Positions 3,203 through 44,346 of a stretch of DNA of 64,000 nucleotides are shown one piece after another. Every line of letters starts with the position of its first letter. Positions within the stretch are counted from its first letter, which is position 1. The DNA is from Minisyncoccota bacterium (GTDB lineage: Bacteria; Patescibacteriota; Minisyncoccia; Phycocordibacterales; SBAW01): positions 187,319 through 251,318 of the forward strand of contig DASZWN010000002.1 of assembly GCA_035546575.1 (NCBI GenBank), in the 5' to 3' direction. The translations under genes were made by a program, and so were the position numbers. Below the pieces are notes generated by a model. It ran no database searches, was not told where the DNA came from, and saw nothing but the letters and a program-made list of their open reading frames with translations.

Positions 3203-3871
3203 CTAAAGCCAGTCAATTGGTTTTTTGCCTTGCTTAACCAAGTAGTTGTTTGCTTTGCTGAATGGTTTTGAGCCAAAAAAACCGTTGTAGGCCGAGAATG
3301 GCGATGGGTGCGGAGATTCTATGACTAGATGTTTTGAGCGATCAATCCTCGCTCCTTTAGTGCGTGCATAGTTACCCCACAAGATAAACACTAAGTGCTC
3401 CCGCTGGTCCGAGAGCGCTGCAATAGCCGCGTCGGTAAACTGCTCCCAGCCCTTGTTTTGGTGTGATCCGGCCAAATGTGCTCGTACGGTAAGAGTTGCA
3501 TTTAAAAGGAGTACTCCTTGTTCTGCCCAACGAGTTAGATCGCCGCTTGTATGCACCATGGGTTTGCCCAAATCGTTCTCGATCTCTTTAAAAATATTCT
3601 GGAGGCTCGGTGGCAAGCGCATCCCCTCCTCTACTGCAAAAGAAAGACCGTTAGCTTGTTTAGGACCGTGATACGGGTCTTGGCCCAAAATCACGACCTC
3701 TACTTTTTCAAACGGGCAGAGTTGGAATGCCCTGAATATATTTTTTGGCGCGGGATATACGGCGCCGTTTTTATACTCGCTTTTTACAAAATCAGTAAGC
3801 TCCTTGAAGTACTCTTTACCAAACTCCTGCTCCAAATGTTGTTTCCAAGAAGCCTCGATCTTTACGTCCAT
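3203..3871 (-). CDS. ung: Uracil-DNA glycosylase (family 1)
   Basis: GQDPYH motif and overall UNG-like sequence (HPSPFSA, LLLNA). Confidence 0.9.
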   Translation of the reverse strand: MDVKIEASWKQHLEQEFGKEYFKELTDFVKSEYKNGAVYPAPKNIFRAFQLCPFEKVEVVILGQDPYHGPKQANGLSFAVEEGMRLPPSLQNIFKEIENDLGKPMVHTSGDLTRWAEQGVLLLNATLTVRAHLAGSHQNKGWEQFTDAAIAALSDQREHLVFILWGNYARTKGARIDRSKHLVIESPHPSPFSAYNGFFGSKPFSKANNYLVKQGKKPIDWL

Positions 3872-6252: not shown

Positions 6253-7062
6253 TCATATATCACTCCCTGGCACGCACAACGCGCCAACCTCCTCTAACAC
6301 CTTGTCGGCACGAGGCCCTACCACGCCTGCCTTTGAGAGCGCCTCCGTCTTTTCAGGCAATGCATTACACAACACCACACGCTCGCTCAGCAGAGCCGTT
6401 TTCTCGTGGTTTGAGAGACTGGTGAGCGCAGTGACCGGGTAGAGCTTTGCTTGGTCGATCCGGTCGTGCAGATTATTGCCCTGGGGATAATCCCACCCCA
6501 AAAGCTCAAGGCCGGCGCACTCAGCGTACTGTATTGCCTTGGTCGTGAATTTTGTATTAGTTACAACCAGGCCTCTTCCCTCACCAATATCGTCGACACG
6601 GGCTTTTACATAGAGCACTGTCTTGAGATCGGTTTTAAATCCCGCGGCATTGTGGAACTTTGCCTCCACAAATATCTTGTCGCTCCCTTTTGTAAGCACT
6701 ACATCAACCTCGTGTTCAACGCATCTGCCTTTTATGATTTGATCTATTTTTGCCTCATACCCTTGAGTGCGAAATAATTCGGCGACATAGGCCTCAAACG
6801 GAAACCCCGACGGGCCAAAGTCGAGCAGTGCGCGCTTGAGGCTGTAGCGCGCGGCAACCGTGTGCTTAACCTCGCGCAGATGTGCGAATGCGCGCGAGTA
6901 AATCTCCTGTGTGGTAATGCCGCTCCACAGCTGGCGCTCTATATCGTCTGCAACGCGCTGCGCAATATCCGGCTGCGCGCCCGCGCGCCGGAGCGATGCG
7001 ATAAGTTTCTGAGAGTCGAATGGCTCGCTGGTGCCGTCGGCTTTAGCAACAATAATACTCAT
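6253..7062 (-). CDS. ATP-cone domain fused to Mrr-like restriction endonuclease domain
   Basis: N-terminal ATP-cone (IVAKADGTSEPFDSQKLIASL...) and C-terminal PD-(D/E)XK Mrr_cat-like core (EVDVVL...FVEAKF). Confidence 0.72.
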   Translation of the reverse strand: MSIIVAKADGTSEPFDSQKLIASLRRAGAQPDIAQRVADDIERQLWSGITTQEIYSRAFAHLREVKHTVAARYSLKRALLDFGPSGFPFEAYVAELFRTQGYEAKIDQIIKGRCVEHEVDVVLTKGSDKIFVEAKFHNAAGFKTDLKTVLYVKARVDDIGEGRGLVVTNTKFTTKAIQYAECAGLELLGWDYPQGNNLHDRIDQAKLYPVTALTSLSNHEKTALLSERVVLCNALPEKTEALSKAGVVGPRADKVLEEVGALCVPGSDI

Positions 7063-8139: not shown

Positions 8140-8189
8140 ATTTCGAGACTAGCGCACCGGTTCGCCGAGCGCAATCAAACCAATAGATA

Positions 8190-8822
8190 CTAGTGGACCG
8201 TCGTAGTGGCCGTTACCGAAACAGAGGTCGATGCGGTAGTGCCTGGCGTTGTAGTCGCGGTGCTTGTCGCGGTAGTAGTTGATTCAGTCGGCATGATCGG
8301 CGCCTCCGGAGTGTCGGACGGGACATACGTCGGCATCGTATTTTCCGAATTACCCGGGAGATACGAGCTGATAACCGAAGGGTTCATGTATACCCATGCA
8401 CCAACACCGCCAACACCCAACAGGAGGAGAAGTACTGCGAGTATCAAAATCCATCTGCCCGTGTGGCGCACAGCCACCGGTGCAGTCTTAAGCTCGGAGG
8501 CAGCCATCATGGGGCGAGGCGTAAGCGGGGCCATAGACGCTGCAGTCGGAATCTGACCGCCCATCGGAGCCTGTGCTGCGGGAGTAACGGGATTAATTGC
8601 AGTGCCTGGTACAGCCGTAGGCGGAGTTAGTACGCGTGGGGCAACCGGTCCTGGAGCTGCAGGCGCTGGCGGAGGAGTCTTTACGCCCTCGATAGCCATA
8701 AACGCCTCGTTTGCATCTTGTGAGCTCCAGCCGCCTTGCGCAAGCGCCTGCGTAATAGCATCTTTTGAGAGCCCCGCTGCACGTTGCGCTCGTACATACT
8801 CGAGAAGTTGCGGATTGATCAT
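8190..8822 (-). CDS. Pro-rich single-pass membrane protein, hypothetical
   Basis: ORF with an N-terminal helical domain, a PAPAAPGP linker, a TM segment (WILILAVLLLLLGVGG) and a Thr-rich C-terminus. Confidence 0.5.
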   Translation of the reverse strand: MINPQLLEYVRAQRAAGLSKDAITQALAQGGWSSQDANEAFMAIEGVKTPPPAPAAPGPVAPRVLTPPTAVPGTAINPVTPAAQAPMGGQIPTAASMAPLTPRPMMAASELKTAPVAVRHTGRWILILAVLLLLLGVGGVGAWVYMNPSVISSYLPGNSENTMPTYVPSDTPEAPIMPTESTTTATSTATTTPGTTASTSVSVTATTTVH

Positions 8823-38050: not shown

Positions 38051-38593
38051 ATGGACATGCTCCCCAACTCGATAACGATCACTATCGTATTGCTGACCGC
38101 ATTTCTTTCTTTTATCACGGCTATTAAATACGGGGTCGAGGACGACTTTGTACGTACACGGTTCATCATGACCGCGTTCTTTTTCTTTATAGTAGCAACG
38201 CTCACCGTATCGTTTTGGCACTATACCTTCGACACGCTCCCCTACACGGTGCCTGCATGGGGTTTAGGCGCCTTGATCGGCTATATATTGGGCGTACGCA
38301 CCGAGCAGCAGAAGTTGCGTGACCAAGGTTTGGCTTACTACACCGAGCACTTTGCGCATATCCATATGCAAGACATCGAAAAGCTCAACTGGTGGGCTGT
38401 GATCAACTTCTACTCCGTCATAAGTGCGCTTATTATGATCAATTTGGTGGGCCTAAGCACCGTGATCTTTAAACAAGCCGAGAGTTGGGCGATCATCACG
38501 AGCGTCGTGGGAGCGTTTCTGCTCGGCACCATCGCTCCGTACCTAGTTCATCTTTGGAGCCTGCCTGCCGGCAGGCAGGTATCAAATAAATAG
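38051..38593 (+). CDS. Hypothetical integral membrane protein
   Basis: Start chosen at MDMLPNS. 5 or more TM segments. The 3-prime end overlaps the 20-bp palindrome CCTGCCTGCCGGCAGGCAGG. Confidence 0.5.
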   Translation: MDMLPNSITITIVLLTAFLSFITAIKYGVEDDFVRTRFIMTAFFFFIVATLTVSFWHYTFDTLPYTVPAWGLGALIGYILGVRTEQQKLRDQGLAYYTEHFAHIHMQDIEKLNWWAVINFYSVISALIMINLVGLSTVIFKQAESWAIITSVVGAFLLGTIAPYLVHLWSLPAGRQVSNK

Positions 38594-39286
38594 ACCTGCT
38601 GATATCAAAGCACCGCATACTATCAAAAGCACAACGAGCGAAATATAAAATACGATCCTTGCGCGGCGGCGCTGCTTATCATTCTGCGGGCGTCTAACCA
38701 AGAGCGGCACGCCCGCATTGGCGTACTCGTCGTAGCGGTAGCGCGCAATCGCCAAAAAGTGCGGTAGCTGCCATACAAACAGTATTGCAAAGAGCCACAA
38801 GGCGGTCATATCTAGCGCATGGGCAGCAGCAACGTAACCCACGACCGGCGGCATAGCGCCCGCAACAGCACCCGGAAAAAGGGCGAGGCCCGTACGCGGC
38901 TTGAGCGGCGTATAGATAAGCACGTAGACAACAAATCCGATAAGCGCCATATCGAGCGAGCGCATGTCGAGCGGGAGCATAAGCAGTATCCCGACCGCAA
39001 GCAGTGCAAACCCGAACACGAGCGCATGTGCCGAGACAATACTGCCCGATGGGAGCGCGCGCTTTTGAGTGCGCTCCATTTTGGCGTCGATAAACCGGTC
39101 TGAGTAGTTATTAAAGACGCATGCGCTTGCAACAATGCACGCAAGACCTAGCACCATGGCAGCAAACGCTTTCCAGTCGACTACACCATGCGAGCCAAAT
39201 ATAAATGCAGCAGCCGCAACCGCCACATTCATGTAGACCATGCGCGGCTTGGCGAGGCGATAATACGAGCTAATCAGTGTCGGCAT
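38582..39286 (-). CDS. cyoE: Protoheme IX farnesyltransferase (heme O synthase)
   Basis: UbiA-family prenyltransferase motifs (NNYSDRFIDAKMERT). Last gene of the cyo operon. Confidence 0.8.
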   Translation of the reverse strand: MPTLISSYYRLAKPRMVYMNVAVAAAAFIFGSHGVVDWKAFAAMVLGLACIVASACVFNNYSDRFIDAKMERTQKRALPSGSIVSAHALVFGFALLAVGILLMLPLDMRSLDMALIGFVVYVLIYTPLKPRTGLALFPGAVAGAMPPVVGYVAAAHALDMTALWLFAILFVWQLPHFLAIARYRYDEYANAGVPLLVRRPQNDKQRRRARIVFYISLVVLLIVCGALISAGLFI

Positions 39287-39632
39287 GAGGGAATATATTT
39301 TCTCCTTTAAATATATCGATGTCGGACATCTGCATATGCTCCAGGTTGGTCATTATCCAAAGCGTACCAACAACAAGAATTAAAACGACAACAACCGCAA
39401 ACACGAGCGCGGTTAAGTTCCACCGCGGCTTGCGCTCCTGCCCTATATGCAAAAAGAAGATCAGCTGCACACATAGCTGTGCGAGGGCCAGGATAACAAA
39501 CCCGAATCTAAGCTCCTGGTGCGTCGGGAATGAGTGCGAGGTAGCTCCGTGCAACCATAAGAGCCCGAGCGGCACGAATGTGAGGAGTATTGAGAGTATA
39601 AAACCGGTTATGTAGGCGTGTTGCGGTTTCAT
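39270..39632 (-). CDS. cyoD: Quinol oxidase subunit IV
   Basis: About 120 aa, 3-TM CyoD/QoxD-like protein in the expected operon position. Confidence 0.65.
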   Translation of the reverse strand: MKPQHAYITGFILSILLTFVPLGLLWLHGATSHSFPTHQELRFGFVILALAQLCVQLIFFLHIGQERKPRWNLTALVFAVVVVLILVVGTLWIMTNLEHMQMSDIDIFKGENIFPHADTD

Positions 39633-39635
39633 AGT

Positions 39636-40205
39636 TTAGAGCGAGCCAAACAGATACACAAACGTAAAGATAAAGATCCAGATAATATCGAGGAAGTGCC
39701 AGAACAAGCTTAGTATGGTAAGCCGGCGCACCGCAGTATCGGTAAATCCCCGCCTCCATATATAGGCTGCGAGTATCAGCATCCAGAGCAGGCCGATCGA
39801 TACATGGAGCCCATGCGTGCCAAGGAGCACGAAGAACGAGGAGAGGAACGCGCTCACCCCAGGCCCGCTCCCCTCCCCAACTAGATGCACAAATTCGCTA
39901 CCTTCAAGCAATATGAAGAAGAATCCCAGTATCCACGTTGCCGCAAGCGCAAAAAGGGACTGCGCTTTTTTACCCTCGCGTGCCCGCAAGACTGCGATCC
40001 CTGCGGTAAAGCTGGAGCTGAGCAGTACTACTGTTTCCAAAAGCACAAACGGCAGGTCAACAATCGTTTCTATAGATACTCTGCCAAAGGTTGCATCTTG
40101 GAGCACTGCATAGGTGGCAAAAAGGCCGGCAAACAAAACGCAGTCGCTCATGAGATATACCCAGAAGCCGAAGGTTACTTTGTCGAGTAGAGATTCTTCT
40201 TTCAT
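39636..40205 (-). CDS. cyoC: Heme-copper quinol oxidase subunit III
   Basis: Subunit III-like 5-TM sequence ([16 protein letters not shown]). Confidence 0.8.
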
Positions 40206-42115
40206 ATGGTTATGGTGTGCTCTGTGTGTTCCTCAAGTGAGCGGATTATCAGCACGATAACGATAGCCACGATACCAAGTACTGCGAGCCACCACATGTG
40301 CCATACCATCGCAAAACCGAACGCAAATGCACACGCAGCGATAATACACCCAATAAACGAGTTATTTGGAATTTCAATCTCGACTTTCTTTTCAGAAATA
40401 GTTTTAAGATTTTGTTTTTTTATCTCCCACCACGCATCTCTGTCGGTAACAGTCGGGATCACCGCAAAGTTGTAGTGCGGCGGCGGCGAAGAGGTCGACC
40501 ACTCGAGCGTGCGGCCGTTCCATGGATCGCCAGTAGTATCGCGATACTGGTTGCGCTGTTTGATGCTGACAACAAGTTGGAGGAATTGGAAAAAGATCGC
40601 AAGCGCTATAACGCATACGCCAAGCGCGGCAACAATAAAGAGCGGCTGCCAGCTCGGGTCTACCACATCGAGCCTGCGCGTTGCGCCCATAAAGCCCAAA
40701 ATGTAGAGCGGCATAAACGCGAGCAAAAACCCGGTGATCCAGCTCCAAAAGGCGTAGCGACCAAGGCGCTCGTTGAGGGTAAAGCCAAATAGTTTTGGGA
40801 ACCAGTATGCAAGCCCCGCAAAATAGCCAAACAGCACGCCTCCGATAACCATGTTATGGAAGTGCGCTACCAAAAACAGGCTGTTGTGGAGCTCAAAGTC
40901 CGCGGCGGGCACCGACATAAGCACCCCTGTCATGCCGCCGATAATAAACGTGCTGAGGAAGCCCATAAACCACAGCATTGGCGTTGGGAATAAAATCCGC
41001 CCGCGGAACATCGTAAACAGCCAGTTAAACACCTTAACGCCTGTTGGTATCGCAATCACCATGGTCATGATGCCAAAGAACGCGTTTACATCCGCTCCCG
41101 CGCCCATCGTAAAGAAGTGGTGCACCCATACCAAAAACGAGAGTACGACAATGCTCATGGTCGCAACGACCATTGAGGTATAGCCAAAAAGCTTTTTTTG
41201 CGAAAAGACCGGAACAATTTCGGAGAATATGCCGAAGGCTGGCAAAATAAGGATATATACCTCCGGGTGGCCCCAGGCCCAAATGAGGTTGACGTACATC
41301 ATGGCCGAGCCGCCTAAATCGGTCGTAAAAAAGTGCATACCGAGCGTGCGGTCGAGTGCTAGGAGCGCTAACGTGACCGTGAGTATCGGAAAGGCAAATA
41401 TCACAAGGATCATCGAACCGAGGCTGGTCCAGACAAAAATCGGCATGCGCATGAGGCTCATACCCGGCGCGCGCATTTTTATAATCGTTACCAAAAAGTT
41501 AATACCGGCAGCAAGCGTGCCCACGCCCGCTATCTGGAGCGCCCAAATGTAGTAGTCAACCCCTACCCCGGGGCTATACGCGAGTTCGGAGAGAGGCGGG
41601 TATGCAAGCCAGCCGGTTGCGGCAAAGTCGCCGATTACGAGCGAGGCGTTGAGAAGCATCGCGCCCACAACCGTGAGCCAAAAGCTTATCGAGTTGAGGA
41701 GCGGGTAGGCCACGTCGCGTGCGCCGATCTGCAGCGGCACGATAAAGTTAAGCAGCGCAAACATGAACGGCATCGCGACAAAAAAGATCATGATAACTCC
41801 GTGCGCTGTAAAAATCTGCCCGTAGTGCTCGGGGGTGAGAAACCCGGGGCTCCCGGGCAAGCTGGTGGCCTGTTGCACGCGCATCATTGCCGCGTCGGCG
41901 CCGCCGCGGAATAGCATGACAACCGAGAGTATCAGATACATCACGCCGATTTTTTTATGGTCGAGGGTTGTGAGCCACTCGCGGTAGAGCCAGCCCCACG
42001 CACGGTAATAGAGCACGAGCCCCATTACCGCAATGCCGCCAAAGACCACCATGAGTTGCGGTACTGTCTCGATCGGTCCATGTATGAATGCTTGTGGGGT
42101 AAGGATGCCAAACAT
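40202..42115 (-). CDS. cyoB: Heme-copper oxidase subunit I
   Basis: [17 protein letters not shown] and other conserved His ligand regions. 637 aa. Confidence 0.95.
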
Positions 42116-42116
42116 A

Positions 42117-42935
42117 TTAGTGATGATGCGCGCCAGGGCTCAGGAGGTCCATGTACTTTTCCATGATCGTAGTATACAGACCATCTTCTACCTCTCCATA
42201 ATATGCCACAGGGTCGCCAGTGCTTGGCCGAGCAAGAAAAGTATACGAATCGTCGGAGAGCACATTGGCGGAGAGCTTGGTCGTTTGTGCCCATGCATCA
42301 AACTCGTCTTCCGGCACCGCTTCGACCACGAACTTCATCCCCGCAAAACCGGCACCACTATAGTTGGCCGAGCCGCCCGCAAAGGTGCCCGTCTCGCTCG
42401 CTTCTAGGTTTAGTACATTGCTCATGCCGGTCATGGCATAAATCTGGCCGCCGAGCTGCGGCACCCAAAACGAGTTCATCGGTGCATCGGCAGTAACTTC
42501 AAACTGTACCGGGCGGCCAACAGGAATGCGCAGATAGTTTATGGTTGCGATTCCCTCTTCCGGATAGATAAAAAGCCACTTCCAATTGAGCGCTACAACC
42601 TGCACCACCAATGGCGGTTCACCCCGAGCAGAGTCGAGGGGCTTATTGGGCGCAAGCGCGTGCGTGCTGCTCCAGGTGAGGGCGCCCAGAATAAGGATGA
42701 TCTCAAAGGGGATTGCCCACCAGACTAACTCGTCCATTTTGGAGTGCTCCCAATCGGGCATATACTTTGCCTTGGTGTTGCCGGCGCGGTATTTCCATGC
42801 AAAAAAGAAAAGGAGTATGTAGACCGGGATAGCCACAATGAGCATAAACTCCACTGCGTGGAGCATAAGCCCGCGCTCGGCAAGGGCAATCGTGCCCGAT
42901 GGTTGTAGCAGTGGGAATGCGCTCGTGAGCGGCAT
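42117..42935 (-). CDS. cyoA: Quinol oxidase subunit II (lacks CuA cysteine ligands)
   Basis: Cupredoxin-fold subunit II with [10 protein letters not shown] but no CxxxC CuA motif, which indicates the quinol-oxidase type. Confidence 0.8.
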
Positions 42936-43336: not shown

Positions 43337-43409
43337 TGGACCGGAGGGAAGTCGAATCCCTGACCTCGTCAATGCGAATGACGCGCTCTACCAGCTGAGC
43401 TACCGGCCC
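43337..43409 (-). tRNA. tRNA-Ala (anticodon CGC)
   Basis: Cloverleaf folded by hand: acceptor GGGCCGG with a G3:U70 pair, anticodon loop TTCGCAT, T-loop TTCGACT. Confidence 0.8.
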
Positions 43410-43430: not shown

Positions 43431-44048
43431 TTATTTCTTGCGTTTGTGCATGTTCCGGTCGGACTCTTTGCGGTCGACAAACCAGCTATCGGCTTTGTTA
43501 AACCACCAAGAATCAGGGCGAGTCTTTGCGAGGAGCCTCCCTAGATCTTTCCCGGCAGGAGTCTTGAGCCGTTTGATTGCAATCACAATCCACTCTTTTG
43601 CCTTTGCGTTGCCTTTTACCTCCTCTTCGCGAAGTGATGCGATCCACTCTAATGTATCTGCATCTTTTACTACCTTTGCTTCGGGAGTTTTGCGATCATG
43701 CTCTTCTACATACACGTCTCGCAGTTCTTTACCAAAAGGAACTGCTTTTGAAATATCTTCAAATGCCGCCGTCTCTGCCAAACGGCCATATCGCTGGTGG
43801 ACATAGTTAAGGTCTGAGGTGCGGCCTTCTGCAAAGTCATGCACAAGCGCCATAAATACTACCTTCTGCTTATCAACTTTAGGCGTGAGGTACGCAAGCG
43901 CATAGGCAATAATCGCCGCACGGAAAAGATGCTCCGCAACAGACTGCTGTCCGCTACCTAAAAACCAATATCCTGATCGCGGCGTATGCCGCAGTATCCC
44001 GGCTTCGTAAATGAAGTCGGTAATTTTTTGTAAGTCGTCTTTTTTCAT
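43431..44048 (-). CDS. HD-domain phosphohydrolase (YfbR-like 5-prime-deoxynucleotidase family)
   Basis: HD motif region (FMALVHDFAEGRTSD). Confidence 0.75.
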   Translation of the reverse strand: MKKDDLQKITDFIYEAGILRHTPRSGYWFLGSGQQSVAEHLFRAAIIAYALAYLTPKVDKQKVVFMALVHDFAEGRTSDLNYVHQRYGRLAETAAFEDISKAVPFGKELRDVYVEEHDRKTPEAKVVKDADTLEWIASLREEEVKGNAKAKEWIVIAIKRLKTPAGKDLGRLLAKTRPDSWWFNKADSWFVDRKESDRNMHKRKK

Positions 44049-44084
44049 AGCTGCCGGCTACCAAAGTCTAAATTCAGAAACAGG

Positions 44085-44109
44085 GTCGGAGTGCCGAGAA
44101 TCGGACTCG
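44085..44109 (-). repeat. Partial duplicate of the 3-prime T-arm and acceptor segment of the downstream tRNA-Pro-like gene (25-bp direct repeat of 44171-44195)
   Basis: Exact 25-bp direct repeat GTCGGAGTGCCGAGAATCGGACTCG, followed by a different hairpin (GGTGCGT-CTC-ACGCACC). Confidence 0.6.
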
Positions 44110-44171
44110 CTGGTGCGTCTCACGCACCAAAATGTAAAAGATACGCACGCATTGTATTTTCGAAGGCTCTG

Positions 44172-44242
44172 TCGGAGTGCCGAGAATCGGACTCGGGTCT
44201 TACGCACCCGAAGCGCATGTAATACCACTATACCACACTCCG
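44172..44242 (-). tRNA. tRNA-Pro-like (anticodon CGG) with a non-canonical T-loop (C55) and a 20-bp extended perfect stem (44160-44179 / 44236-44255)
   Basis: Hand fold: acceptor CGGAGTG/CACTCCG, anticodon stem TGCGC/GCGTA with loop TTCGGGT, T-arm CCGAG-TCCGATT-CTCGG. Thirteen extra perfectly paired bp extend beyond the acceptor stem. Confidence 0.4.
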
Positions 44243-44346
44243 ACAGAGCCTTCGACGAGGCATGTGTTACCATTCCCAAAAGGAAACAGATGCAGCAATA
44301 CTAGCCGAATTTCCAGAAAAAGAAAATGTGCTAAGATGCGGTATGT

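What the first reader, a model, noticed from the sequence alone, without database searches (positions are those of the whole stretch)
44085..44255. tRNA-Pro(CGG)-like gene embedded in a 20-bp perfect extended stem, with a duplicated 3-prime segment: an integration scar or a tRNA-derived element
A cloverleaf with anticodon CGG can be folded on the minus strand (44172-44242). Three features are atypical:
- C rather than U at T-loop position 55.
- A 4-nt variable loop.
- An acceptor stem that continues as a 20-bp perfect inverted repeat (TCGAAGGCTCTGTCGGAGTG / CACTCCGACAGAGCCTTCGA).

Its 3-prime 25 nt, covering the T-arm and acceptor 3-prime strand, recur as an exact direct repeat 86 bp away (44085-44109). 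That is the classic signature of site-specific integration or excision at a tRNA 3-prime end, yet only about 60 bp separate the repeats.

No other tRNA-Pro is present in the window. This could be a functional tRNA with an unusual precursor, or a tRNA-derived mobile or repeat element.
Basis: seen in the sequence. Interest (0 to 1): 0.55.

Follow-up and report, generated by a model that had tools for sequence, protein, structure and literature searches.

The report
tRNA-Pro gene with conserved precursor stem
This is a working proline tRNA gene of a tiny "candidate phyla radiation" bacterium whose flanks pair into an evolutionarily conserved 13-bp stem; the duplicated tRNA tail beside it is a conserved tRNA-derived element, not the scar of an inserted virus or island.

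Summary
That covers tRNA-Pro(CGG) at 44172-44242 (-), the 20-bp perfect inverted repeat and the 25-nt exact direct repeat.

- **The tRNA is genuine.** It scores 55.6 bits against Rfam and carries the Pro identity elements. C55 and the 4-nt variable loop are normal for this Paceibacterota lineage.
- **The 13-bp leader-trailer extension is a conserved RNA helix.** In 10 related loci, 7 of 13 pairs show compensatory double changes and 94% of cells pair. G-U outnumbers A-C 14:2 on the tRNA-sense strand. Among about 65 tRNAs in these loci, only tRNA-Pro(CGG) has it.
- **The integration-scar reading fails.** There is no integrase, only 61 bp lies between the repeats, and no phage or plasmid matches. 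The same layout recurs in relatives.
- **The partial copy is not decaying.** It is 87% identical to that of a relative whose neighbouring gene is only 46% identical at third codon positions.
- **Best reading.** A precursor processing or stability stem, plus a tRNA-derived element in the 5' region of a probably co-transcribed HD-hydrolase gene. The mechanism is inferred.

Related metagenome contigs carry nested "tRNA-Pro inside tRNA-Pro" genes. One nests GGG, UGG and CGG together. I found no description of this in the literature searched.

The parts
44172..44242 (-). tRNA-Pro(CGG) gene, 71 nt, no encoded CCA. It has C1-G72, A73, G35, G36 and G37, T loop UCCGAUU (C55) and a 4-nt variable loop.
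   Evidence: ARAGORN. Rfam RF00005 55.6 bits. L096 and L104 carry an identical tRNA sequence, and relatives show compensatory changes in the acceptor, anticodon and T stems.
44243..44255 (-). 5' leader arm UCGAAGGCUCUGU. It pairs with A73 plus the 12-nt trailer arm, lengthening the acceptor stem from 7 to 20 bp.
   Evidence: Inverted repeat I1. Covariation across 10 loci: 13 pairs, 7 with double changes, 93.8% of cells paired. RNAalifold independently predicts the continuous 20-bp helix.
44160..44171 (-). 3' trailer arm CAGAGCCUUCGA, partner of the leader arm. Discriminator A73 at 44172 pairs with U-1.
   Evidence: The trailer consensus is shared with relatives (alignment A2).
44131..44159 (-). 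Conserved 29-nt spacer (AAAUACAAUGCGUGCGUAUCUUUUACAUU) between the trailer arm and the partial tRNA copy.
   Evidence: Together with the partial copy it is 87% identical to L104 (94% without gap columns). HD third codon positions are only 46% identical.
44085..44130 (-). Tandem partial copy of tRNA-Pro, covering profile positions 33-72. It holds a degenerate anticodon loop (UUUUGG), the hairpin GGUGCG-UGAGA-CGCACC (44112-44128), and an exact copy of the T arm plus 3' acceptor strand plus A73 plus C (the 25-nt repeat, 44085-44109).
   Evidence: nhmmer profile hit of 27 bits; no shuffle exceeded 0. Direct repeat D1. The homologous copy in L104 scores 32 bits, and L100 has a degenerate one.
44074..44084 (-). 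Trailer-like sequence CCUGUUUCUGA after the partial copy. It resembles the trailers of relatives (for example CUAAGUUUCUGA in L102), which indicates that tRNA 3' part and trailer were duplicated together.
   Evidence: Read directly. In L100 both copies are followed by CAAAG(C/U)(U/C)UCUGA.
43431..44048 (-). HD-domain (HD_3 / YfbR-like) hydrolase gene, 36 nt downstream of the partial copy. It is probably co-transcribed with tRNA-Pro and the following tRNA-Ala(CGC).
   Evidence: Pfam HD_3, E = 1.5e-23. The order tRNA-Pro(CGG)-HD(-tRNA-Ala(CGC)) is conserved in L100-L104 and L106-L108. No promoter-like or terminator-like site on the minus strand between them.
43337..43409 (-). tRNA-Ala(CGC), the downstream end of the presumed tRNA-Pro/HD/tRNA-Ala unit. 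It has no leader-trailer helix.
   Evidence: ARAGORN and Rfam at 63.5 bits. The leader-trailer extension is only 3 bp.

Best explanation
The locus is a genuine, functional tRNA-Pro(CGG) gene of a Paceibacterota (CPR/Patescibacteria) bacterium.

**The helix.**
- In the primary transcript, 13 nt of 5' leader pair with the discriminator and 12 nt of 3' trailer. The 7-bp acceptor stem therefore continues as a 20-bp helix.
- This helix is selected at the RNA level.
- It most likely acts as a precursor processing or stability stem. It would hold both ends of the pre-tRNA together at the 5' end of a tRNA-Pro / HD-hydrolase / tRNA-Ala co-transcript.
- It would be opened or cut, for example by a double-strand-specific RNase, before RNase P and RNase Z make the mature ends and CCA is added.

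**The 25-nt repeat.**
- It is the best-preserved part of a tandem partial copy of the tRNA, running from the anticodon loop through the 3' end plus trailer.
- This copy lies in the 5' region of the HD gene.
- It evolves in concert with the tRNA and is kept under constraint. It is a tRNA-derived cis element, not an attachment-site scar.

**Shown:** that the tRNA is real, that the helix covaries, that the partial copy is conserved, and that mobile-element hallmarks are absent.

**Inferred:** co-transcription, which nucleases act, and what the partial copy does.
For: **The tRNA is real.**
- Rfam 55.6 bits and the ARAGORN call.
- In 10 relatives the acceptor, anticodon and T stems pair in 100% of cells, with 3, 3 and 2 compensatory pairs respectively.

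**The helix is a conserved RNA structure.**
- Leader-trailer pairs in alignment A2: 13 pairs, 7 with changes on both sides, 93.8% of cells paired.
- For the whole structure, 0 of 500 shuffles reached the observed covariation, and sliding the partner by 1-3 columns dropped pairing to 29-50%.
- RNAalifold predicts the 20-bp helix on its own.
- Window and L104 have identical tRNAs but differ at 5 of 13 leader and 6 of 12 trailer positions. Both still pair at 13 of 13 positions.
- Non-Watson-Crick cells: 14 G-U/U-G against 2 A-C/C-A on the tRNA-sense strand.
- The extension is 10-15 bp in 9 tRNA-Pro(CGG) loci with this leader/trailer (6 bp by the same count in rearranged L105). It is 5 bp or less in about 55 other tRNAs from the same loci, with one exception at 9 bp.

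**The partial copy is conserved.**
- It is present in window, L104 and L100/L101.
- Window against L104: 67 of 77 columns identical, against 46% identity at HD third codon positions.
- L100's partial copy carries L100-specific acceptor and T-stem states, so it tracks its own tRNA.

**Context.**
- The gene order tRNA-Pro / HD / tRNA-Ala(CGC) is conserved.
- No promoter-like or terminator-like site lies between them.
Against: - No expression or end-mapping data exist, so the nuclease pathway is pure inference.
- A leader fully paired up to position -1 is expected to hinder RNase P (general knowledge). The helix could therefore delay or prevent maturation rather than promote it.
- L096 carries an identical tRNA-Pro(CGG) with no helix at all. 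The helix is thus not required for this tRNA as such.
- Perfect 13-bp arms in window and L099 could be refreshed by DNA-level palindrome correction rather than by RNA selection.
- The 10 sequences are related, so shared G-U pairs may be few events. The shuffle control can over-state significance.
- The function of the conserved partial copy is unknown.
- Relatives L102, L103 and L106-L108 do without the partial copy.
Confidence: 0.6

Rival explanations
1. Relic of a nested "tRNA inside tRNA" gene. An older tRNA-Pro gene was interrupted in its anticodon loop by a cassette made of a tRNA-Pro flanked by inverted arms. The 13-bp arms are the cassette or intron helix. The downstream partial copy is the old gene's 3' half. 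Its 5' half has been lost in this lineage.
For: **Related contigs show complete nests.**
- L099: 5' half (GGG), 5' half (UGG), full CGG gene, 3' half, 3' half, with 13- and 14-bp leader/trailer helices.
- L086, L094 and L095: 5' half, full GGG gene, 3' half.
- L102: a 5' partial copy upstream of the helix-flanked gene.

**The outer halves belong together.** They match each other at acceptor positions where they differ from the inner gene. In L099 these are G4-C69 and A7-U66.

**Joined outer exons still look like tRNAs.** ARAGORN calls tRNA-Pro for both L099 outer genes and for the L086 outer gene.
Against: - No 5' half is detectable in the window or in L104.
- The window's partial copy begins in the anticodon loop and is followed by a second trailer. 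That pattern fits a tandem duplication.
- The copy and the spacer are conserved far above neutral expectation, which a dead exon would not be.
- The helix persists and covaries in loci that have no halves at all: L103, L106, L107 and L108.
Confidence: 0.25
2. Classical site-specific integration scar. A phage or island integrated at the 3' end of tRNA-Pro, duplicating the T arm and acceptor as attL/attR. It was later almost entirely deleted, leaving 61 bp.
For: An exact 25-nt direct repeat covers the T arm to the 3' end. This is the usual form of tRNA att-site duplications. Partial tRNA genes as attR of 9-23 kb elements are described in PMC9897764.
Against: - No integrase, recombinase or transposase among the roughly 39 ORFs scanned across the window.
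- The repeat sequence gives 0 hits in viral contigs, phages and plasmids.
- Both copies are followed by a homologous trailer.
- The configuration is inherited across genomes whose synonymous sites are near saturation, and it is conserved rather than decaying.
- Base composition around the locus is flat.
Confidence: 0.04
3. DNA-level palindrome with no RNA function. This lineage often creates hairpins by template-switch (quasi-palindrome) mutation. On this view the leader-trailer arms and the hairpin in the partial copy are by-products that happen to flank the tRNA.
For: - The arms are perfect 13/13 in window and L099, and 12 Watson-Crick pairs plus one G-U in L104.
- Several unrelated hairpin insertions occur in tRNA-Pro copies of relatives. 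L091 has one in the D arm, L094 in the variable region, and L100 and the window have different hairpins at the same place in the partial copy.
- The arms diverge faster than the flanking spacer.
Against: - G-U against A-C is 14:2 on the sense strand, which a DNA palindrome would not favour.
- The helix sits in the same register next to the acceptor stem in 10 loci, with invariant closing pairs.
- It is confined to tRNA-Pro(CGG) among about 65 tRNAs.
Confidence: 0.08
4. Functional split or nested tRNA. The downstream 3' half is an exon that is joined, in cis or in trans, to a 5' half encoded elsewhere. The helix acts like the complementary leaders of archaeal split tRNAs.
For: - The 3' copy is strongly conserved.
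- The nested L099 locus carries GGG, UGG and CGG, which is the full set of Pro anticodons, in one nest. Its outer exons still fold as tRNAs when joined.
Against: - The window copy has a damaged anticodon loop (UUUUGG, no G37 in register). It also has a 7-nt insertion before a T stem reduced to 4 bp.
- No 5' half lies in the 64 kb.
- There is no bulge-helix-bulge geometry at the junctions, and no group I intron.
- The exon boundaries differ between L086, L094 and L099.
- No splicing endonuclease or RtcB was seen in the window.
Confidence: 0.06

Closest known systems
Canonical bacterial tRNA-Pro gene (Rfam RF00005), CCA-less type matured by RNase P, RNase Z and the CCA-adding enzyme
   Same: Full cloverleaf, C1-G72, A73, G35-G36 and G37. 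It scores above the gathering threshold and is conserved with compensatory changes.
   Different: The leader and trailer are fully complementary up to position -1/73, which lengthens the acceptor stem to 20 bp. C55 replaces the near-universal U55. A tandem partial copy follows the gene.
Leader-trailer processing stems of bacterial rRNA operons, and RNase III sites that release a tRNA from a downstream mRNA (E. coli metY-nusA-infB; Regnier and Grunberg-Manago 1989, cited in PMC12217051)
   Same: Sequences 5' and 3' of a stable RNA pair into a helix of about 20 bp within a polycistronic transcript. The helix is kept by compensatory evolution.
   Different: Here the helix is coaxial with, and directly continues, a tRNA acceptor stem. 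Cleavage by RNase III or any other enzyme is untested. I know of no described bacterial tRNA family with such a conserved stem (own knowledge plus literature searches).
tRNA 3'-end duplications at attL/attR of integrated phages and islands (partial tRNA genes; PMC9897764)
   Same: An exact direct repeat of the T arm plus 3' acceptor strand lies next to an intact tRNA gene.
   Different: There is no integrase and no element. Only 61 bp lie between the repeats, against 9-23 kb in the published cases. The trailer is duplicated as well. The arrangement is conserved among diverged genomes.
Archaeal split, permuted and intron-containing tRNAs (Nanoarchaeum equitans, Thermoproteales; PMC3218864, PMC4033280)
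   Same: Complementary sequences flanking tRNA pieces form a helix of 12-14 bp. Related contigs have separated 5' and 3' halves whose acceptor strands match.
   Different: The organism is bacterial. No bulge-helix-bulge motif, no splicing endonuclease and no 5' half were found here. The piece enclosed by the helix is a complete tRNA, not an intron.
Group I introns in the anticodon loop of Patescibacteria tRNAs, position 35/36 (PMC13011429)
   Same: The same phylum. In the nested relatives L094 and L086 the interruption also lies within anticodon positions 34-37.
   Different: No group I intron signature in Rfam scans. The inserts are 120-190 nt, and 71 nt of that is a tRNA. The paper reports tRNA-Asn and tRNA-Asp and has no mention of Pro or nesting.

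Membership tests
tRNA (RF00005), isotype Pro | Cloverleaf scoring above the family gathering threshold | tested here: met
   55.6 bits against a gathering score of 29, full-length model match 1-71. ARAGORN calls tRNA-Pro(cgg).
tRNA (RF00005), isotype Pro | Bacterial ProRS/TrmD identity set: G35, G36, G37, A73, C1-G72 (own knowledge of E. coli identity elements) | tested here: met
   All are visible in the sequence and in the ARAGORN drawing. They are invariant in 10 relatives.
tRNA (RF00005), isotype Pro | Stems maintained by compensatory change in relatives | tested here: met
   The acceptor, anticodon and T stems pair in 100% of cells, with 3, 3 and 2 double-change pairs.
tRNA (RF00005), isotype Pro | Expression and aminoacylation | not testable with these tools
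   No RNA data are available.
Integrase att-site scar at a tRNA gene | Direct repeat of the tRNA 3' segment | tested here: met
   25-nt exact repeat.
Integrase att-site scar at a tRNA gene | Tyrosine or serine recombinase gene next to one repeat | tested here: not met
   Pfam scans of about 39 ORFs across the window found only housekeeping families.
Integrase att-site scar at a tRNA gene | Foreign DNA between the repeats, or a matching attP in a phage or plasmid | tested here: not met
   61 bp lie between the repeats. There are 0 hits in viral contigs, phages and plasmids. GC content is flat.
Integrase att-site scar at a tRNA gene | Repeat absent from, or decaying in, related genomes that lack the element | tested here: not met
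   The same partial copy is present in L104 at 87-94% identity, although HD third codon positions are only 46% identical.
Leader-trailer processing stem (rRNA-operon / RNase III type) | Uninterrupted dsRNA of about two helical turns formed by 5' and 3' flanks | tested here: met
   20 contiguous base pairs. RNAalifold consensus helix at columns 4-23 / 80-99.
Leader-trailer processing stem (rRNA-operon / RNase III type) | Pairing conserved through compensatory substitutions | tested here: met
   7 of 13 pairs carry double changes and 93.8% of cells pair.
Leader-trailer processing stem (rRNA-operon / RNase III type) | Cleavage by RNase III or another dsRNA nuclease, and presence of its gene | not testable with these tools
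   No rnc gene was seen among the window ORFs scanned. The rest of the genome is not available.
Archaeal-type split or intron tRNA | Bulge-helix-bulge motif at the exon-intron junctions | tested here: not met
   Junctions read in the window and in L086, L094 and L099 show no 3-4-3 bulge-helix-bulge. The boundaries differ between loci.
Archaeal-type split or intron tRNA | A matching 5' half for the 3' half | tested here: not met
   None in the window at up to 3 mismatches or by profile search.
Group I intron in a tRNA anticodon loop | Group I catalytic core detectable by a covariance model | tested here: not met
   Rfam E-value scans of the window locus and of the nested loci return only tRNA hits.

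The most novel reading that the evidence does not exclude
The window locus may be one state of an undescribed bacterial gene architecture: "Russian-doll" tRNA-Pro genes.

- A complete tRNA, clamped by a leader-trailer helix, sits inside the anticodon loop of another tRNA-Pro. It can be nested up to three deep. Contig L099 carries GGG, UGG and CGG in a single nest.
- On this reading the outer genes are still expressed. RNase P and RNase Z would excise the inner tRNA. The helix would hold the outer halves together for an unknown cut-and-ligate step. That would be a bacterial analogue of archaeal split-tRNA maturation.
- The conserved 3' copy in the window would then be a functional exon or a tRNA-like processing signal for the HD mRNA.
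Probability: 0.1. Interest if true: 0.9.

Novelty: new variant of a known kind. Interest (0 to 1): 0.6.

Why it matters
**What would be new.** Bacterial tRNA precursors are normally thought of as having unstructured, unconserved flanks. This locus shows a clade-wide, covarying 13-bp leader-trailer helix on a single tRNA species. That implies a dedicated maturation, storage or regulatory step for tRNA-Pro(CGG) in ultra-small CPR bacteria. Their RNA-processing repertoire is reduced and poorly known.

**A caution for annotation.** A duplicated tRNA tail next to a tRNA gene is not always an att scar. Here it is a conserved tRNA-derived element in front of a housekeeping gene.

**A possible new kind of tRNA gene organisation.** The nested tRNA-in-tRNA loci found in relatives are directly testable. 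They can be checked with whole-genome tRNA inventories and with metatranscriptomes.

Tried and rejected
- **Synteny through GuaC.** The closest species representatives are 78% identical and have no tRNA near guaC, so this gave no comparison. It did place the window in the CPR/Paceibacterota.
- **A 5' tRNA half in the window.** No match to the first 20 nt of the tRNA at up to 3 mismatches. No profile hit either.
- **A 5' remnant seen by eye.** I thought window 44256-44277, and L104 just upstream of the leader, looked like a remnant. The profile test against shuffles gave no hit. ARAGORN did not accept the joined L104 candidate, although that construct was mis-spliced by a base or two. I dropped this.
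- **Intron-containing outer tRNAs.** ARAGORN in intron mode did not call any in the nested loci.
- **Other known RNA families.** No group I intron or other family in the window locus or the nested loci.
- **attP search.** Nothing in viral contigs, phages or plasmids.
- **An inversion in the window.** I first read the comparison with L096 as showing one. The window is in fact collinear with L100: Pro-HD-Ala-cyoA-cyoB. L096 is the rearranged one, so I withdrew the inversion.
- **Target-site duplication.** UCGGG occurs on both sides in L104, but this is not reproduced in L094, L086 or L099. That is not a transposon signature.
- **Alternative pairing of the leader with the second trailer.** It is good in L100, weak in the window (9 of 13) and absent in L104. 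It is therefore not conserved.
- **Promoter and terminator scan.** It found nothing convincing on the tRNA strand. A possible -10 box, TAGTAT at 44303-44298 (-), rests on eye only.
Full report
**Observation**

- ARAGORN finds tRNA-Pro(cgg) at 44171-44242 on the minus strand.
- Rfam's tRNA model matches 44172-44242 over its full length at 55.6 bits, against a gathering score of 29.
- The repeat finder reports a 20-nt, 100% complementary inverted repeat at 44160-44179 / 44236-44255. It also reports a 25-nt exact direct repeat at 44085-44109 / 44171-44195.
- The 25-mer occurs only at these two places in the window and never in 100 shuffles.
- The inverted repeat is the 7-bp acceptor stem, plus U(-1)-A73, plus 12 further leader-trailer pairs.
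- The T loop is UCCGAUU (C55) and the variable loop has 4 nt.
- Two independent public assemblies reproduce both flanks exactly.

**Organism and neighbourhood**

- The adjacent HD-domain protein is identical to one annotated in an NCBI "MAG TPA: Candidatus Paceibacterota bacterium" on a 327-kb contig.
- GuaC is 78% identical to CPR metagenome-assembled genomes.
- On the tRNA strand the order is tRNA-Pro(CGG), partial copy, HD hydrolase (43431-44048), tRNA-Ala(CGC), a small ORF, then cyoA and cyoB.
- About 39 ORFs scanned across the window are housekeeping genes. Examples are ATP synthase, signal peptidase, UbiA, Ddl, UvrABC, LeuRS and MnmA. There is no integrase, transposase, RtcB or splicing endonuclease.
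- GC content is flat.

**The "atypical" tRNA features are lineage traits**

- A metagenome scan for the T arm plus acceptor 20-mer returned 17 contigs. The same C55 T arm occurs there in tRNA-Pro of all three anticodons and in a tRNA-Gly and a tRNA-His; L096's tRNA-Ala(CGC) has the same C55 T loop.
- All 12 related tRNA-Pro genes have a 4-nt variable loop.
- In the alignment of 10 orthologous tRNA-Pro(CGG) genes, position 55 is C in four and U in six.
- The tRNA's own stems show compensatory changes and pair in 100% of cells.
- The identity nucleotides are invariant: C1-G72, A73, G35, G36 and G37.
- I conclude it is a functional tRNA.

**The leader-trailer helix is a conserved RNA structure**

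Using homologues of the HD protein, I fetched syntenic loci L100-L108. Most have tRNA-Pro(CGG) directly upstream of HD.

A gapless alignment of 16 nt leader, tRNA and 16 nt trailer from 10 loci (A2) gave the following.
- The 13 leader-trailer pairs include 4 invariant pairs, 2 that vary on one side, and 7 with changes on both sides. 93.8% of cells are paired.
- The whole-structure covariation score exceeded all 500 shuffles. Pairing collapsed to 29-50% when partners were slid by 1-3 columns.
- RNAalifold, given no hint, predicts the continuous 20-bp helix.
- Window and L104 have identical tRNAs. Their arms differ at 5 of 13 leader positions and 6 of 12 trailer positions, yet both pair at 13 of 13.
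- Among non-Watson-Crick cells there are 14 G-U/U-G against 2 A-C/C-A on the tRNA-sense strand. That is the asymmetry expected for an RNA helix, not a DNA palindrome.
- The extension is 10-15 bp in 9 tRNA-Pro(CGG) loci with this leader/trailer, and only 6 bp by the same count in the rearranged L105.
- It is 5 bp or less for about 55 other tRNAs in the same loci. One tRNA-Ala(GGC) in L099 reaches 9 bp.
- Some tRNA-Pro(CGG) genes have none, including L096, whose tRNA is identical to the window's.

Caveats: the sequences are related, so events are fewer than cells, and the shuffle control is not a probability.

**The 25-nt repeat belongs to a conserved tandem partial copy**

- A profile of tRNA-Pro aligns 44130-44085 to positions 33-72 at 27 bits. 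Shuffles never exceeded 0.
- The copy consists of a degenerate anticodon loop, a hairpin (GGUGCG/CGCACC) created by a 7-nt insertion, the exact T arm and 3' acceptor strand, and a second trailer-like sequence.
- L104 has the same element (32 bits). L100/L101 have a degenerate one that carries L100-specific acceptor and T-stem states and a second trailer.
- Window and L104 are only 46% identical at HD third codon positions. The spacer plus partial copy is identical in 67 of 77 columns.
- The element is therefore under constraint, or is continually homogenised against the tRNA. The 29-nt spacer has no tRNA template, so constraint is needed for at least that part.
- L102, L103 and L106-L108 lack the copy. 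It is thus specific to a sub-clade.

**Why it is not an integration scar**

The repeat itself is the only att-like feature.
- There is no recombinase gene.
- Only 61 bp lie between the repeats, compared with 9-23 kb for published partial-tRNA attR sites (PMC9897764).
- No viral contig, phage or plasmid carries the sequence.
- The trailer is duplicated together with the tRNA tail.
- The arrangement is inherited and conserved in relatives.

**Most likely mechanism (inferred)**

- No promoter-like or terminator-like site separates tRNA-Pro, HD and tRNA-Ala(CGC).
- In L100 and L108 an extended -10-like box lies about 20-30 nt upstream of the leader arm (read by eye).
- I therefore propose one transcript, in which the 5'-proximal leader pairs with the trailer. 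The tRNA is enclosed in a 20-bp stem directly in front of the HD message.
- The stem would act like an rRNA-operon processing stem, or like the RNase III sites that release tRNA-metY from nusA-infB mRNA in E. coli (reference 68 of PMC12217051). It would co-ordinate 5' and 3' maturation and set or protect the HD mRNA 5' end.
- CCA is not encoded, so cleavage after A73 (RNase Z type) and CCA addition are expected (general knowledge).
- Against a purely positive role, pairing up to position -1 should hinder RNase P. L096 also manages without the helix.

**Nested tRNA-Pro genes in relatives**

- L099 (about 3223-3570) reads: 5' half (GGG-type), 5' half (UGG), complete tRNA-Pro(CGG), 3' half, 3' half.
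  - Each inner unit is clamped by 13-14-bp complementary arms.
  - The halves of each layer match each other where they differ from the inner gene: G4-C69 and A7-U66.
- L086, L094 and L095 show 5' half, complete GGG gene, 3' half. The interruption lies inside anticodon positions 34-37.
- L102 has a 5' partial copy only.
- Joining the outer exons in silico yields sequences that ARAGORN calls tRNA-Pro for both L099 layers and for L086 (at a slightly relaxed threshold).
- The outer genes all carry defects.
  - L099's outermost gene lacks U33, and its middle gene has a weak anticodon stem.
  - L086 has an extra nucleotide and a mismatch.
  - L094 has acceptor mismatches.
- The junctions differ between loci and show no bulge-helix-bulge or group I signature.
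- I therefore regard the outer genes as most likely disrupted relics. A functional, spliced arrangement is not excluded.
- Literature searches found group I introns at 35/36 in Patescibacteria tRNA-Asn and tRNA-Asp (PMC13011429). They found nothing on nested or helix-flanked tRNA-Pro.

**Verdict**

- The integration-scar interpretation is rejected.
- The "functional tRNA with an unusual precursor" interpretation is supported and sharpened. The locus has a covarying leader-trailer helix specific to tRNA-Pro(CGG) in a Paceibacterota clade, plus a conserved tRNA-derived element upstream of the HD gene.
- The mechanism remains inferred. The nested loci in relatives deserve a dedicated survey.

Noticed in passing
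L099:3223-3570: A triple-nested tRNA-Pro locus. It reads 5' half (GGG-type), 5' half (UGG), complete tRNA-Pro(CGG), 3' half, 3' half. Each inner unit is clamped by 13-14-bp complementary arms. Each 3' half is preceded by the same two-hairpin module. The outer halves have mutually matching acceptor strands.
   Followed up: partly
L086:588-843 (-); L094:110-396 and 8140-8361; L095:595-816: tRNA-Pro(GGG) genes interrupted within anticodon positions 34-37 by an insert that contains another complete tRNA-Pro(GGG) flanked by complementary arms. The arms of L094a and L094b differ by compensatory changes. The outer L094 genes also carry a long hairpin in the variable region.
   Followed up: partly
L091:~1510-1607: A second tRNA-Pro(CGG) copy carrying a 35-nt palindromic hairpin inserted in the D arm. 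It lies about 320 nt downstream of an intact tRNA-Pro(CGG).
   Followed up: no
L102:3864-3894: A 5' partial copy of tRNA-Pro(CGG), positions 1-31, lies directly upstream of the helix-flanked intact gene. This is the mirror image of the window's 3' partial copy.
   Followed up: partly
window 44183 (T-loop position 55) and alignment A2 column 69: Position 55 is C instead of the near-universal U. It toggles between C and U among close relatives. The same C55 T loop is used by tRNA-Pro, tRNA-Gly, tRNA-His and tRNA-Ala in related contigs, which suggests relaxed need for pseudouridine-55 in this lineage.
   Followed up: partly
L104:~816-870: In the closest relative the HD start codon is ATA instead of ATG. 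An in-frame GTG inside the tRNA-like partial copy extends the called protein by 17 residues (P0002, 222 aa). The tRNA-derived element may therefore have been recruited as coding sequence there. The alternative is a sequencing error or a rare start codon.
   Followed up: no
L103:1-390: The 3' end of tRNA-Val(CAC) is duplicated about 300 nt downstream (GAGTCCTGTAGAGTGCACA). The spacer between the copies is rich in hairpins. Partial 3' tRNA duplications are therefore not limited to tRNA-Pro in this clade.
   Followed up: no
window 38582-42935 (-): A cytochrome bo3-type quinol oxidase cluster in a Paceibacterota genome. It contains COX2/COX_ARM, a 637-aa subunit I-like ORF (COX1 by synteny with L100), COX3 and a UbiA-family prenyltransferase. 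Aerobic respiratory components are uncommon in CPR bacteria.
   Followed up: no
window 6253-7062 (-): An ORF that combines an N-terminal ATP-cone domain with an Mrr-type restriction endonuclease catalytic domain. This is an unusual fusion.
   Followed up: no
window 44298-44303 (minus strand TAGTAT): A possible -10 box about 43 nt upstream of the leader arm. It resembles the TGCTAGTAT and TGCTATATT boxes upstream of the leader in L108 and L100. It was seen by eye only, and the consensus scan did not flag it.
   Followed up: no
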